IMG/VR virus record: IMGVR_UViG_2718218360_000008
Source: a virus
Lineage: Duplodnaviria > Heunggongvirae > Uroviricota > Caudoviricetes
Reading direction: 5' to 3' (one strand)
DNA length: 64,000 nucleotides
In this document: in pieces, positions 3,001 to 6,000 of the stretch
Layout of the letters: each line of letters opens with the position of its first letter
Position numbering within the stretch: position 1 is the first letter of the stretch
Position numbers: made by a program

Positions 3001-6000
3001 GAGCAGAACACCAATATCAAAACAACCTTCAGACGTATTAACGTTTGGTAATAACGTTTCCATTATCGCGTCCTCAACAATGAATTTTGTGATGCAGTGC
3101 CTGGTGCCTCCAGGTGACGTTAACCAGTTAACAATTAACGCCGGATACAGAGAATCCACCCATAACACTGTTTTTGGTTTTAACTGTTCCGCGTGCGCTT
3201 AGCCGCATTCACCGCATCACAAAATTCACTTTAAAAAGGGCGGCAGAGCAGCCACGGAGTAAAACTGATACCGCCAAACGTCACCAGAAAATTGATAACA
3301 GAGGGCGTTGCAGCGGGGTTGTCACTTAAGCGTATGGTCAACCTGACAACCCGGTGTCCTCAATGGGGAAGGAATAACCCCGCCATACTTACCGCCGCGC
3401 CATTTCGCGGAGTGCCACAACCGGAAGCGCACGTTCGAAGAAATCTAACGACAAGCCTTCTAAGGGAAAGAGCTTCGCCGTACGCTTTCGCGTTATGCAC
3501 TGACTTTTCAGGGAAATATCCTTTCAGTAAACTGTCAGTACCGGATTCTTATCCGTGTCCGGCGCACGACCACACGTGACAGCGTGTTGGTCTCCATTTT
3601 TAACCCCAGAACCTCAATGGAGGATAAATGCCAAACAAAAAAAGAAATCCGCTTATTGAAAAACAGATTGAATGCCTGGTAAATCAACTCAGGCAATCAG
3701 GGTTATTAAAAACTCATTCAGAGTTGAGGCTCACAGAATCAGCATTCGACGATAAATAAATAATGTCCTTTATAATGGCATTATTGATTTTAATCGTTCT
3801 GTTGGTCGCCGCGGCCCTGCTGGTGTTTCCTTATAATTACCAGTCAATCCAGAGTGGACCGTGTTCAGCGTAAATATAACTGTACACATCCAGATTATAT
3901 TTGTGGTCTGTTAAGAACAGGCCGCAAATACATGCCGAAGCTTCCAGTGCAGCGGCTCTGTTACTGAATAACCATGTAGCAACATTCCAGCGTTTTTCTG
4001 CATCCCAGTCTTTCTCAAGGCCTGATACCATGAAGAAACCGTTAGTGTTGCCATCAAATAATTCTGTTTCCAAATTTTTAAGCAATGCCTGATGGACTCT
4101 TGCCAGGTATTCCGCCGGAATTTCGCCACGAATTCTGATGAGATTGTCATAAACAAACATGTTCCCCGCATATGGCGATTTTTCTTTCTTGTTTTTTAAA
4201 CCAGCATCATGAGCAAACTGATCAATTTCTTCTTCCGTTGGTTTCGTATTGATGTTTTGCGCTGTCGTTTCTGCAATTTTATTTGCCACACTCTCTGAGT
4301 CGTGTTTATTTATAGACGCACAGAAATACAATCCGGTAAACGCATCGCGCACATTACGAGCCATATTATCAGTGTCTTTTTTCGTTACCGATTCCAATTC
4401 AAGTTCGTTCAGACGATGACGAAGTGTGTGTGCTGCAATCTCCTGGATTGAAGGAGGTAAATCTTTAAATTCCATCGTCAACCTCATCAGTCAGTGTTTC
4501 TGGCTAACCAGCGACGCGCGCCAGCTTCAGTTTTAAACGTTTTGCTTTTGGTATACGTCATCGCGGTGAACGTACCGTCCTGGTTGGGGAACACGCCACA
4601 TACCAGAGATTCGTTGTTGCCAAGATTGAGCGTATCCATGTTGACCTCATTTCCCCTTAACGCCGGGGTAGCGGAACAAAAACCTGCTGCATAGTTATTA
4701 AAGTTGAACCCTGCCGTCATGTTCTTACGCCTCGGGCTGGCTACTTAACCCCTGACCACTGCCTGGTAACTCGAAGTATTGCCCTGCATTCTGTGGGGCG
4801 GGGTGAGGGAATGAATGAAGTTTAGAAAAACGAACATTTAAGGTCAATGTTTTTTTATCAAAACATTTTAAGCAGGCAGCTGTTACGCCATCACTACGAT
4901 GGCATACAGTTAATCAAATAGATGAGGTTGGTTAAATATCTTGTTGAATTTTAAAGCATACTCCCAATATGCAAGATAGATCATCCAGCATAATTGAAGG
5001 GTAGCGAGGATTCGTGGGGACTAAAAGAATATCCGGCCCTTCTATCTCCAGTTTGCGAATGACAGGCGTTGTGGTCCCTTTGGGTAAGGCAAGGACAATA
5101 TTTCCTGGTTGTACGATTCGATCGGGATCAACAAAAACTGTTGAACCATTTGGGATGGAAACTCCACCACCAGATGTCGACATACTGTCACTCTCTAGAA
5201 CAACAGCAAAGGTATTGGCCGGGATTTCTCCGACAAGCTGCACACAAGAGGTTATTGAGGAATTTTTCATATAATCACTCCAGCTTGCTGCCTGCTGAAG
5301 TGATAGTAGCGGAACCGTTTTTATCGGCGGTAAAGATAGATCAAGCGAATCACCTGTATTTAACTCTCCTCCATTAAGAAGCCAATTTTCGTTTACTTTC
5401 AATATCTTTGCCAGTGAACTTATGTAACGCGAGGACGGCGCTCCTCCACCGTTCATCCATTGACTTACGGAGCCTTTTGATGCGCCAGTGGCATTGACAA
5501 GGTCTTTGCCTTTCAAGTTTAGCGCATGCATACGTTGGGTTATGCGTTCAGATATTGTTTGCTTGTTCATGTTTTGATTTTAAAACACAGATGGTTTTGT
5601 TTCTTGACTTTCTTTGGTTTTGATTATTAAACTTTTGGCGTTCAGTTTTATGGAGCGACTCATGAAAAAATCAGAAGTATTAGGCTATTTTGGCGGAGTT
5701 GTTAAAACAGCCGCCGCTCTAGGAACGTCAAAAACCACAGTCAGCATGTGGGGGGAAGACGTTCCGTGGAAATGGGCGTTGCTAATTCAGGCAGTCACTG
5801 CCGGGGCGCTCAAATATGAGTTACACATACCGACGGTTGTCATTCCCGATTCTGATCATAATCCGCCTTCTAACCAAGGGGGGATTCATGAAAATCAAGC
5901 ATGAACACATCCGCATGGCGATGAATGCCTGGGCGCGTCCTGATGGCGAAAAAGTTCCGGCAGCTGGAATAACCCAGGCTTATTTTGAGTTGGGTATGAC

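What the first reader, a model, noticed from the sequence alone, without database searches (positions are those of the whole stretch)
3837..4720. Unassigned two-gene module at the head of the leftward early operon
A 77-aa and a 216-aa ORF are translationally coupled (TGATG) and sit immediately downstream of the PL-like region on the repressor strand, where lambdoid phages carry N, rex/sie-type exclusion genes or other accessory cargo. Neither resembles N or anything I recognise. This is a classic slot for prophage-encoded superinfection-exclusion or defence functions.
Basis: inference. Interest (0 to 1): 0.5.

Follow-up and report, generated by a model that had tools for sequence, protein, structure and literature searches.

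The report
Prophage early-operon pair with hidden partner

Summary
The ORFs exist, and a repressor-controlled PL-like promoter lies upstream of them. "Unassigned" is only half right. Gene 1 is YdfA (Pfam DUF1391). Its real length is 50 aa (4487-4639); the first 27 codons of the 77-aa ORF are untranslated leader. Gene 2 (212 aa from 4475, "Ybl81", PHROG 2151) replaces ydfB/ydfC in a Qin/Rac-like dicBF operon, with DicF, dicB and a ydfD-like gene downstream, in an E. coli O157:H7 prophage. It has three parts: a 58-aa N-domain shared by many alternative proteins at this slot, a linker, and an acidic 113-aa alpha/beta C-domain with no informative fold relative. No defence-system model matches. The new point is that the C-domain is co-inherited with a basic 69-aa gene on the opposite strand with abutting stop codons (75/75 and 16/18 loci, also in Salmonella). 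This is the geometry of sieB beside N in lambda and beside ydaF in Rac. In this window that partner is frameshifted. My best reading (about 0.4) is a cognate pair split between the lytic and the lysogenic programme. Which member is the effector is unresolved. A conserved structured RNA (3306-3434, minus) lies next to it.

The parts
4932..5570 (-). cI-like repressor, 212 aa: an HTH domain plus an S24 self-cleaving peptidase domain, so presumably SOS-inducible
   Evidence: ORF. (Peptidase_S24 8e-13; HTH_3). The ORF is intact in the 99.8%-identical genome TR01, although RefSeq annotates only the 112-aa C-terminal part.
5571..5632 (.). OR region. Operators are GTTTTGATTTTAAAAC (5571-5586) and GTTTTGATTATTAAAC (5617-5632), with a weaker copy near 5594. 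Copies are 23 nt apart. PR-like promoter at 5604-5633 (plus).
5663..5904 (+). Cro-like regulator
   Evidence: P22_Cro 1.7e-15. (RefSeq annotation).
4849..4864 (.). OL operator GTTTTTTTATCAAAAC. A weaker OL1-like site at 4820-4835 overlaps the -10 in the same position that OR1 holds at PR.
   Evidence: The OL1-like site is from my own reading of the sequence.
4819..4847 (-). PL-like sigma-70 promoter (TTGACC, 17-nt spacer, TAAACT)
4640..4812 (-). Untranslated leader of about 170 nt. It includes the 27 codons wrongly added to the 77-aa ORF. The last ~45 nt before the ydfA start are conserved in all loci.
4487..4639 (-). ydfA homologue (DUF1391), 50 aa plus stop
   Evidence: PF07151, 102 bits against a cut-off of 27.3. 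(WP_000380316.1). (dN/dS 0.11-0.14 in three of four pairs, 0.56 in a barely diverged pair).
3837..4475 (-). 'ybl81' gene, 212 aa plus stop (PHROG 2151). An alternative start at 4487 gives the 216-aa form.
4302..4475 (-). N-domain, residues 1-58. It is helical and is shared by proteins of 106-212 aa (full-length examples in related loci) that have unrelated C-termini.
   Evidence: four further PHROGs match only residues 5-79..
4179..4301 (-). Linker, residues 59-99, low model confidence
3840..4178 (-). C-domain, residues 100-212. It is acidic (pI 4.9), a beta-beta-alpha-beta-beta-alpha-beta sandwich, and carries a conserved FDGxxNG motif. Salmonella proteins share it behind a different N-terminal part.
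3628..3836 (+). Convergent partner gene 'orf69' (PHROG 4274; basic, pI 9.7). Its stop codon (3834-3836) abuts the ybl81 stop (3837-3839). In this window it is broken by a 1-nt deletion near 3758, which leaves a 43-aa ORF (3628-3759). The window also has one A fewer between the Shine-Dalgarno sequence and the ATG, and an extra C at 3607.
3306..3434 (-). Conserved structured RNA element in the early transcript, 16 nt upstream of DicF. It is not in Rfam.
3238..3289 (-). DicF sRNA
   Evidence: RF00039, 75 bits against a cut-off of 48.
2690..3063 (-). dicB (2875-3063) and a ydfD-like DUF1482 gene (2690-2878), followed by a truncated recE

Best explanation
SHOWN. The finding is the promoter-proximal part of a dicBF-type early-left operon in a Qin/Rac-like lambdoid prophage of E. 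coli O157:H7. The order is PL/OL, a ~170-nt leader, ydfA (50 aa), ybl81 (212 aa), a structured RNA, DicF, dicB and a ydfD-like gene. Ybl81 is modular. It has a conserved 58-aa helical N-domain, which many alternative proteins in this slot also carry, and a swappable C-terminal part. Here that part is an acidic 113-aa alpha/beta-sandwich domain with no enzyme-like relative. This C-domain is inherited as one block with a basic 69-aa protein gene (orf69) on the opposite strand, with the two stop codons abutting.

INFERRED.
- The C-domain and orf69 form a cognate, directly interacting pair, expressed in opposite states of the prophage.
- orf69 is made from its own promoter while the repressor keeps PL shut (lysogeny).
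- YdfA and Ybl81 are made only after repressor cleavage or on infection.
- No terminator-like site separates the two genes, so the strong PL transcript must run antisense through orf69 and should silence it.
- One partner therefore neutralises the other when the prophage changes state.

I lean, weakly, to orf69 being the lysogen-expressed factor in the sieB slot and the acidic Ybl81 C-domain being its early-expressed neutraliser (self-immunity). The reverse polarity, an early effector held in check by a lysogen-expressed antidote as in pore-forming colicin operons, is not excluded. The role of YdfA remains open. It is the constant first gene and may work with the constant N-domain.
For: Identity and setting:
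- 99.8% identical to O157:H7 and O121 prophages.
- RefSeq annotation of the neighbourhood.
- DUF1391 match, PHROG 2151 and PHROG 4274 matches, DicF.
- Operators and promoter.
- The Qin operon is described as transcribed from the DicA-repressed dicBp upstream of ydfA (PMC5069750, PMC10448788).

Modularity:
- 58 of 83 YdfA loci have a second gene that starts with the N-domain.
- These genes fall into 5 C-terminal sequence clusters at 40% identity, with product lengths of 106-212 aa.
- A search of 1.84 billion representatives found only 35 relatives. Most share residues 1-55 only; three share only the C-domain or part of it.

Pairing:
- orf69 relatives lie next to the C-domain in 75 of 75 viral-contig loci.
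- The C-domain has orf69 in 16 of 18 loci. The exceptions are one truncated copy and L045. No locus of 69 without the C-domain has orf69.
- The same pair occurs in Salmonella Cox-type elements behind a different N-terminal part, with or without an inserted HTH domain.
- A second Salmonella C-terminal type has its own, different convergent small gene.
- Among 47 haplotypes, ydfA and the N-domain recombine freely but the C-domain and orf69 never separate.

Other support:
- Both members are under purifying selection: 0.14-0.22 for the C-domain and 0.27 for orf69.
- Their charges are opposite and this is conserved: pI 4.9 against 9.7 in E. coli, 4.7-4.9 against 9.4 in Salmonella.
- The stop codons abut, and the scan found no terminator-like site between the genes.
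- The geometry has precedents: lambda N with sieB (35037/35036), and Rac ydaF (DUF1391) with sieB, which overlap by 4 nt.
- The C-domain fold is a generic binding-type sandwich with no catalytic relative.
Against:
- Co-inheritance could be plain linkage, because the block lies between conserved recombination flanks.
- One other C-terminal type pairs with two unrelated small genes (L050 against L009), so strict one-to-one pairing is not general.
- Only 5 of 8 cassette types show opposite charges.
- No consensus promoter was found for orf69 (and my own reading), so its expression in lysogens is inferred only.
- The hairpin after cI has no U-run, so read-through from PRM into ydfA in lysogens cannot be excluded.
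- orf69 is frameshifted in this window while ybl81 is intact, so the pair is not essential for this defective prophage.
- The E. coli and Salmonella contexts are not fully independent, because they share the downstream flank.
Confidence: 0.4

Rival explanations
1. YdfA and Ybl81 are ordinary early accessory proteins, for host takeover or anti-defence, like Ral, Gam, Kil or DicB in other early-left operons. orf69 is an unrelated small moron. The two merely hitch-hike together because recombination happens in the conserved flanks.
For: - The block lies between conserved sequences: the N-domain on one side and the structured RNA/dicF region on the other.
- Another C-terminal type is found with two different small genes.
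- An acidic early protein fits the inhibitor or mimic style of anti-defence proteins (the comparison is from my own knowledge).
- The same operon carries the host-directed DicF and DicB (PMC5069750, PMC6832061).
Against: - Co-occurrence is 75/75 and 16/18, with no locus of 69 lacking the C-domain that has orf69.
- The pairing persists from E. coli to Salmonella, at 33-40% and 42-52% identity, despite a different N-terminal part and a different upstream backbone.
- There are no recombinants within the block, whereas the N-domain does recombine inside the same gene.
- The opposite charges are conserved.
Confidence: 0.3
2. One reading: the ydfA-ybl81 pair itself is a prophage-encoded superinfection-exclusion or defence system that acts in the lysogen.
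For: - The slot next to the immunity region often holds such cargo: rexAB in lambda and sieB in Rac.
- The content of the slot is highly variable.
- DicB, from the same kind of operon, protects against some phages (PMC6832061, title and abstract).
Against: - No PADLOC, NCBIfam or Pfam defence match.
- The genes lie behind OL/PL, so they should be repressed in lysogens.
- No membrane segments.
- YdfA is a constant, widespread first gene of these operons rather than variable cargo.
Confidence: 0.1
3. Ybl81-type proteins are lysis-lysogeny regulators, such as an antirepressor or a CII-like factor. The C-domain would be a sensor or partner-binding module, and orf69 would be its inhibitor.
For: - Salmonella relatives carry a DicA/CII-like XRE HTH between the N-terminal part and the C-domain.
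- The gene sits directly beside the switch genes in both backbones.
Against: - The window protein has no HTH. A weak Noc/ParB-like hit (E = 0.035) lacks the turn glycine.
- C-domain type and repressor type assort independently. The Ybl81 C-domain is found behind at least 8 repressor clusters, which argues against a repressor-specific antirepressor.
Confidence: 0.08
4. ydfA-ybl81 is a classical type II toxin-antitoxin pair, with a small upstream antitoxin and a larger downstream toxin.
For: The gene order is small then large, and the genes are tightly coupled (TGATG, or an 11-nt gap).
Against: - YdfA is constant while the downstream C-terminal part varies, and YdfA also occurs with entirely different downstream genes such as ydfB/ydfC.
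- No toxin or antitoxin family match.
- The promoter is the phage PL with phage operators, not an autoregulated toxin-antitoxin promoter.
- The C-domain has no toxin-like fold.
Confidence: 0.04

Closest known systems
dicBF operon of the Qin cryptic prophage of E. coli K-12 (dicA | ydfA-ydfB-ydfC-dicF-dicB-ydfD)
   Same: A repressor-controlled promoter directly upstream of a DUF1391 gene. A long untranslated stretch with DicF follows, then dicB and a ydfD-like gene, all on one strand.
   Different: ydfB and ydfC are absent. Their place is taken by the 212-aa modular Ybl81 and a convergent small gene. The repressor here has an S24 cleavage domain. The promoter-proximal genes have no known function in Qin either.
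Rac prophage racR | ydaG-ydaF with convergent sieB, and lambda N with convergent sieB
   Same: The last promoter-proximal gene of the leftward operon is met tail-to-tail, with zero spacing or a few nucleotides of overlap, by an opposite-strand gene. In Rac the neighbouring gene is itself DUF1391.
   Different: orf69 is not homologous to SieB. It has 69 aa, is soluble and basic, whereas SieB has 160-190 aa with membrane segments. Nothing shows that orf69 excludes phages. SieB's own antidote (Esc) is encoded inside sieB (my own knowledge), not by the neighbouring gene.
Pore-forming colicin operons and polymorphic toxin-immunity cassettes (comparison from my own knowledge)
   Same: A conserved N-terminal part with a swappable C-terminal part. 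A small cognate gene lies immediately downstream; in pore-former colicins it is on the opposite strand and constitutively expressed, while the effector is SOS-controlled.
   Different: There is no secretion, translocation or receptor-binding domain and no recognisable toxin fold. The small partner is soluble, not a membrane immunity protein. Toxicity is untested.
Prophage defence with cognate self-immunity (BstA/aba type; my own knowledge)
   Same: The logic of a lysogen-expressed factor placed near the immunity region, together with a phage-borne element that spares the phage's own lytic cycle.
   Different: No homology to BstA (no PADLOC hit). In BstA the self-immunity element is a DNA site, not a protein.

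Membership tests
DUF1391 / YdfA (Pfam PF07151) | Match to the family HMM above the curated gathering score | tested here: met
   102.1 bits against a cut-off of 27.3, E = 1.2e-29, residues 29-75 of the 77-aa ORF. RefSeq names the identical protein 'DUF1391 family protein'.
DUF1391 / YdfA (Pfam PF07151) | A small (about 50 aa) protein encoded early in the repressor-controlled leftward operon, as in Qin and Rac | tested here: met
   50 aa from Met28. PL and OL lie upstream. In Rac, ydaF lies second, after ydaG, downstream of racR.
dicBF-type operon | DicF sRNA downstream on the same strand | tested here: met
   RF00039, 75 bits against a cut-off of 48, at 3238-3289 on the minus strand.
dicBF-type operon | dicB and ydfD-like genes downstream | tested here: met
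   RefSeq annotation of 99.8%-identical genomes and the corresponding ORFs in the window.
dicBF-type operon | ydfB and ydfC between ydfA and dicF | tested here: not met
   YdfB and YdfC sequences from a Qin-like phage are unrelated to Ybl81, and no such ORFs are present.
Known anti-phage defence systems (PADLOC-DB 2.0) | HMM match of any component | tested here: not met
   No hits for YdfA, Ybl81, orf69 or their relatives. Only the generic HTH of the Salmonella variants matches RmrA-type models.
Lambda N-type antiterminator | Homology to N, or an arginine-rich RNA-binding motif at the N-terminus | tested here: not met
   No Pfam match. Neither N-terminus is arginine-rich (sequence). nut sites were not searched for.
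SieB / Rex exclusion proteins | Sequence homology and membrane segments | tested here: not met
   No family match. Maximum hydropathy over 19 residues is 0.2-1.2, against 2.2 for Rac SieB.
SieB / Rex exclusion proteins | Convergent position abutting the promoter-proximal gene(s) of the PL operon (sieB) | tested here: met
   The orf69 stop (3834-3836) abuts the ybl81 stop (3837-3839). The same arrangement is seen in lambda and Rac.
Type II toxin-antitoxin module | A recognisable toxin or antitoxin domain | tested here: not met
   No Pfam or NCBIfam match, and no toxin-like fold.
Type II toxin-antitoxin module | Growth inhibition by one partner that the other relieves | not testable with these tools
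   This needs expression experiments.
Polymorphic effector-immunity cassette | A conserved N-terminal part joined to alternative C-terminal domains | tested here: met
Polymorphic effector-immunity cassette | A cognate small gene adjacent to, and co-varying with, the C-terminal domain | tested here: met
   For this cassette: 75/75, 16/18 and 0/69 loci, and the pair is kept in Salmonella. Across other cassette types the result is mixed.
Polymorphic effector-immunity cassette | A secretion or delivery domain, and a toxic C-terminal domain | tested here: not met
   No signal peptide, membrane segment or trafficking domain. Toxicity itself is not testable here.

The most novel reading that the evidence does not exclude
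Enterobacterial prophages may carry a family of 'split' two-protein cassettes at the head of their early operon. A swappable C-terminal domain sits on a constant early protein, and a cognate small protein is transcribed convergently in the lysogen. The two would neutralise each other, so that a function is armed or disarmed exactly when the repressor falls. The diversity of cassette types would then reflect competition between related prophages, as cassette-specific exclusion and escape.
Probability: 0.2. Interest if true: 0.7.

Novelty: new variant of a known kind. Interest (0 to 1): 0.45.

Why it matters
The dicBF-type operon is present in most E. coli genomes: sequence similar to this stretch occurs in 4399 of 5426 complete genomes, often in several copies. 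It already supplies a cell-division inhibitor, a regulatory sRNA and a phage-receptor blocker. Its promoter-proximal genes have stayed blank for 35 years.

If the slot holds matched pairs divided between the lysogenic and the lytic programme, that blank becomes a concrete experiment: co-expression, binding and a phage panel. It would also add a new layout to the known ways in which prophages combine exclusion with self-immunity.

If the pairing turns out to be mere linkage, the result is still a cleaner annotation. The corrections are the two start codons, a missed gene that is a pseudogene here, and a missed structured RNA.

Tried and rejected
- Sequence search of solved structures. The Ybl81 profile gives only a weak Noc/ParB HTH-region hit (E = 0.035), and the alignment lacks the turn glycine, so I treat it as helical noise. 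YdfA gives a weak hit to head-decoration protein gpD (E = 0.1). This probably explains the 'head-DNA stabilization protein D' label in some phage records and is not meaningful.
- Repressor-specific antirepressor idea. Rejected because C-domain type and repressor type assort independently.
- N-like antiterminator. No ARM and no homology.
- put-like antiterminator RNA for the conserved element at 3306-3434. Only one copy is in the window, and none was found in the HK022 stretch I fetched, which may not have included its PL. This is left open.
- A scan of one genome per species for orf69 found nothing. The family is confined to Escherichia and Salmonella.
- I found no convincing sigma-70 promoter for orf69 (and my own reading).
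- The CCCC-N8-GGGG hairpin before the ydfA ribosome-binding site shows uncompensated changes, so a structure there is not supported.
- Literature searches for DUF1391, Ybl81 and the RefSeq accession numbers found no functional study.
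Full report
WHAT IS THERE

The window is a lambdoid prophage of E. coli O157:H7. The stretch 3600-5000 is 99.8% identical to O157:H7 and O121 chromosomes, and 9000-33000 is 100% identical to strain FRIK2455.

On the minus strand the immunity region reads leftward as follows:
- a 212-aa cI-like repressor with an HTH and an S24 peptidase domain (4932-5570);
- the 77-aa ORF (4487-4720);
- the 216-aa ORF (3837-4487).

THE PROMOTER

The PL-like promoter is also real.
- A palindromic operator with half-sites GTTTT/AAAAC occurs at 5571 and 5617, beside the repressor start and inside the rightward promoter. It occurs once more at 4849-4864, between the repressor and the 77-aa ORF.
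- In the whole 64 kb the exact pattern is found only at 4849 and 5571.
- Next to the left copy lies a minus-strand promoter, TTGACC-17-TAAACT (4847-4819). Its hexamers nearly match those of the rightward promoter, TTGACT-18-TAAACT.
- A weaker operator-like site at 4820-4835 overlaps the -10, in the position that OR1 holds at PR. This is my own reading of the sequence.

GENE LIMITS

The 77-aa ORF is too long.
- The Pfam DUF1391 match covers residues 29-75.
- RefSeq annotates 50 aa from Met28.
- A GAGG lies 5 nt before that ATG.
- Among 79 related loci the long frame is open in only 25. The others carry stop codons or non-triplet indels upstream.

The stretch 4640-4812 is therefore a leader of about 170 nt, and ydfA is 4487-4639.

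For the second gene, the PHROG profile and RefSeq start at Met5 (4475), where a GAGG lies 6 nt upstream. Both ATGs are conserved, so I cannot say which one is used. Coupling is tight in either case.

All parts are under purifying selection:
- ydfA: dN/dS 0.11-0.14 in three of four pairs, and 0.56 in a barely diverged pair;
- N-domain: 0.3-0.45;
- C-domain: 0.14-0.22.

WHAT THE MODULE BELONGS TO

Downstream on the same strand lie DicF (3238-3289; Rfam 75 bits against a cut-off of 48), dicB, a DUF1482 (ydfD-like) gene and a truncated recE. This is the layout of the dicBF operon of the Qin prophage. In K-12 that operon is transcribed from the DicA-repressed promoter upstream of ydfA, and its genes ydfA, ydfB and ydfC are 'small proteins of unknown function' (PMC5069750, PMC10448788).

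Gene 1 is thus a member of a named but uncharacterised family. Gene 2 is not ydfB or ydfC. It is a 212-aa protein that some sources call Ybl81 (PHROG 2151). It is confined almost entirely to Escherichia, with a few Salmonella members.

No PADLOC, NCBIfam or Pfam model matches it.

ANATOMY OF GENE 2

Ybl81 is modular.
- Four further PHROGs match only its first 55-79 residues.
- An exhaustive HMMER search of 1.84 billion representatives found just 35 relatives. Most share residues 1-55 and then diverge completely. Three share only the C-terminal domain or part of it.
- In 83 loci that encode YdfA, 58 have a second gene that begins with this N-domain.
- These second genes fall into 5 C-terminal sequence clusters at 40% identity, with product lengths of 106-212 aa.
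- The other loci carry ydfB/ydfC or other genes.

The C-domain (residues 100-212) recurs in Salmonella proteins of 220-315 aa. These have a different N-terminal part, and some have an inserted DicA/CII-like HTH. Their first residues (EITDIPxSI) faintly echo the E. coli N-domain (EFKDLPxSI).

THE MISSED PARTNER

In genomes identical to the window, RefSeq annotates a 69-aa gene on the plus strand. Its stop codon directly abuts the stop codon of ybl81. It belongs to PHROG 4274 (unknown function), is basic (pI 9.7) and is under purifying selection (0.27).

In the window this gene is broken. Over 2952 aligned bases the window differs from FRIK2455 by only three single-base indels, and all three lie in this gene or just upstream of it:
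- an extra C at 3607;
- one A fewer between the Shine-Dalgarno sequence and the ATG;
- a missing T near 3758 that shifts the frame.

The Salmonella relatives of the C-domain also have a convergent small gene overlapping their 3' end, and it is homologous to orf69 at 42-52% identity.

Co-occurrence counts:
- In my first set of 87 loci, orf69 is present in 16 of 18 loci with the C-domain and in none of 69 without it.
- In a second, independent set retrieved with orf69 as the query, the C-domain lies tail-to-tail next to it in 75 of 75 loci.
- Among 47 haplotypes, ydfA and the N-domain recombine relative to the rest. The C-domain and orf69 always belong to the same clade.
- A second Salmonella C-terminal type has its own, unrelated convergent small gene, with or without the HTH insert.
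- Several E. coli cassette types also have their own small convergent gene, behind a conserved ribosome-binding region.
- The mapping is not perfect. One C-terminal type is found with two different small genes.

HOW IT MOST LIKELY WORKS

Shown:
- the operon context;
- the modular build of Ybl81;
- the co-inheritance of the C-domain and orf69;
- the tail-to-tail geometry, with no terminator-like site detected between the genes;
- the opposite net charges of the two proteins, conserved across genera.

Inferred:
- The two proteins are a cognate pair made in opposite states.
- With the repressor bound at OL, ydfA-ybl81 is silent and orf69 can be transcribed.
- After repressor cleavage the PL transcript must run antisense through orf69 to reach DicF and dicB. 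It produces Ybl81 and should suppress orf69.

The geometry has well-known precedents. In lambda the sieB ORF ends at 35036 and N ends at 35037. In Rac, sieB overlaps by 4 nt the end of ydaF, which is itself a DUF1391 gene. orf69 therefore sits in the sieB slot without being a SieB homologue.

I lean to orf69 being the lysogen-expressed factor and the acidic C-domain being its early neutraliser. The reasons are the slot analogy, the charge pattern, the binding-type fold, and the fact that here the small gene has decayed while ybl81 is intact. The opposite polarity would resemble pore-forming colicin operons, with an SOS-induced effector and a convergent constitutive immunity gene (my own knowledge). 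It is not excluded.

My confidence that the two form a functional pair is about 0.4. The main rival, at about 0.3, is that they are unrelated cargo linked by position.

WHAT IT IS NOT

- A repressor-specific antirepressor is unlikely. The Ybl81 C-domain occurs behind at least eight different repressor clusters, and the window's repressor type occurs with other C-terminal types.
- It is not N-like: there is no arginine-rich motif and no homology.
- A ydfA-ybl81 toxin-antitoxin pair is unlikely, because YdfA is constant while its downstream partner varies.
It is not excluded, because DicB from this kind of operon protects against some phages (PMC6832061) and dicBp fires spontaneously in a subpopulation of cells (PMC10448788).

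SIDE FINDING

A segment between orf69 and DicF is far better conserved than the genes around it. A covariance model built from 23 variants finds one copy in the window (3306-3434, minus strand, 152.8 bits). It also finds copies in Salmonella loci that lack DicF, and one in the leader of the C1-controlled ban operon of phage P1 (88.7 bits), where the record notes a 'dicF-like region'.

On 70 distinct sequences:
- 98.5% of cells pair, against 36-61% when the partners are slid;
- six pairs show changes on both sides;
- no shuffle of 500 reaches the observed values;
- the many G-U to G-C and U-A steps fit only the early-transcript strand.

The alignment was fitted to the model and the sequences are related, so these numbers are supportive rather than conclusive. 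Rfam 15 has no match. Its role is open; candidates are DicF maturation, transcript stability or read-through.

VERDICT

The module is a new variant of a known kind: a variable cargo slot at the head of a lambdoid early-left operon, here of the dicBF type. It comes with a testable and apparently undescribed pairing between a swappable C-domain and a convergent small gene.

Noticed in passing
window 3306-3434 (minus strand): A conserved structured RNA of about 129 nt lies in the early transcript, 16 nt upstream of DicF. There is one copy in the window. Copies also occur in Salmonella Cox-type elements that lack DicF, and in the leader of the phage P1 ban operon ('dicF-like region'). On 70 distinct sequences, 98.5% of cells pair and 6 pairs show compensatory changes. 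Rfam has no match. The function is unknown.
   Followed up: yes
window 3600-3760: The window differs from the otherwise identical FRIK2455 and TR01 genomes by three single-base indels in 2952 bp. All three lie in the small convergent gene or its ribosome-binding region, at 3607, in the A-run 3626-3628, and near 3758. None of 5426 complete genomes matches this stretch exactly. This could be targeted decay of the gene or a local sequencing artefact.
   Followed up: partly
window 4932-5570: The 212-aa cI-like repressor ORF (HTH plus S24 peptidase) is intact. RefSeq annotates only its 112-aa C-terminal part ('LexA family protein') in genomes with identical sequence.
   Followed up: yes
window 4640-4685: About 45 nt directly upstream of the ydfA start (GTTCCGC..CCCGGCGTTAAGGGGAAATGAGG) are conserved in all 53 distinct leader variants, even where the rest of the leader differs. 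The small CCCC/GGGG hairpin shows uncompensated changes, so a structure is not supported. The reason for the conservation is unknown.
   Followed up: partly
window 3571-3590, compared with L053 and L027: A short hairpin upstream of the convergent gene (ACACG-TGACAG-CGTGT) has its loop in the inverted orientation (CTGTCA) in some loci.
   Followed up: no
window 10498-10672: A sok antitoxin RNA (Rfam, 113.5 bits) lies next to a Hok/Gef family gene, so there is a hok/sok module in the early-right region of the prophage.
   Followed up: no
window 1-2600: The left arm of the prophage is degraded. It holds an IS256-family fragment, a DinI-like gene, a partial and frameshifted integrase, and a recE that lacks its C-terminus. 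The prophage is probably defective for excision.
   Followed up: no
window 3031-3240 (minus strand): A sub-threshold Rfam match to STnc100 (34.7 bits against a cut-off of 47) lies just downstream of DicF and overlaps the start of dicB.
   Followed up: no
L084, L088 and L092 (Salmonella loci): The Salmonella elements that carry the related cassette have a P1-type C4 antisense RNA followed by antirepressor-like genes (Phage_ASH, Derepression) a few hundred bases to about 1.5 kb downstream. They combine a Cox/C-type switch with a P1 immI-like module.
   Followed up: no
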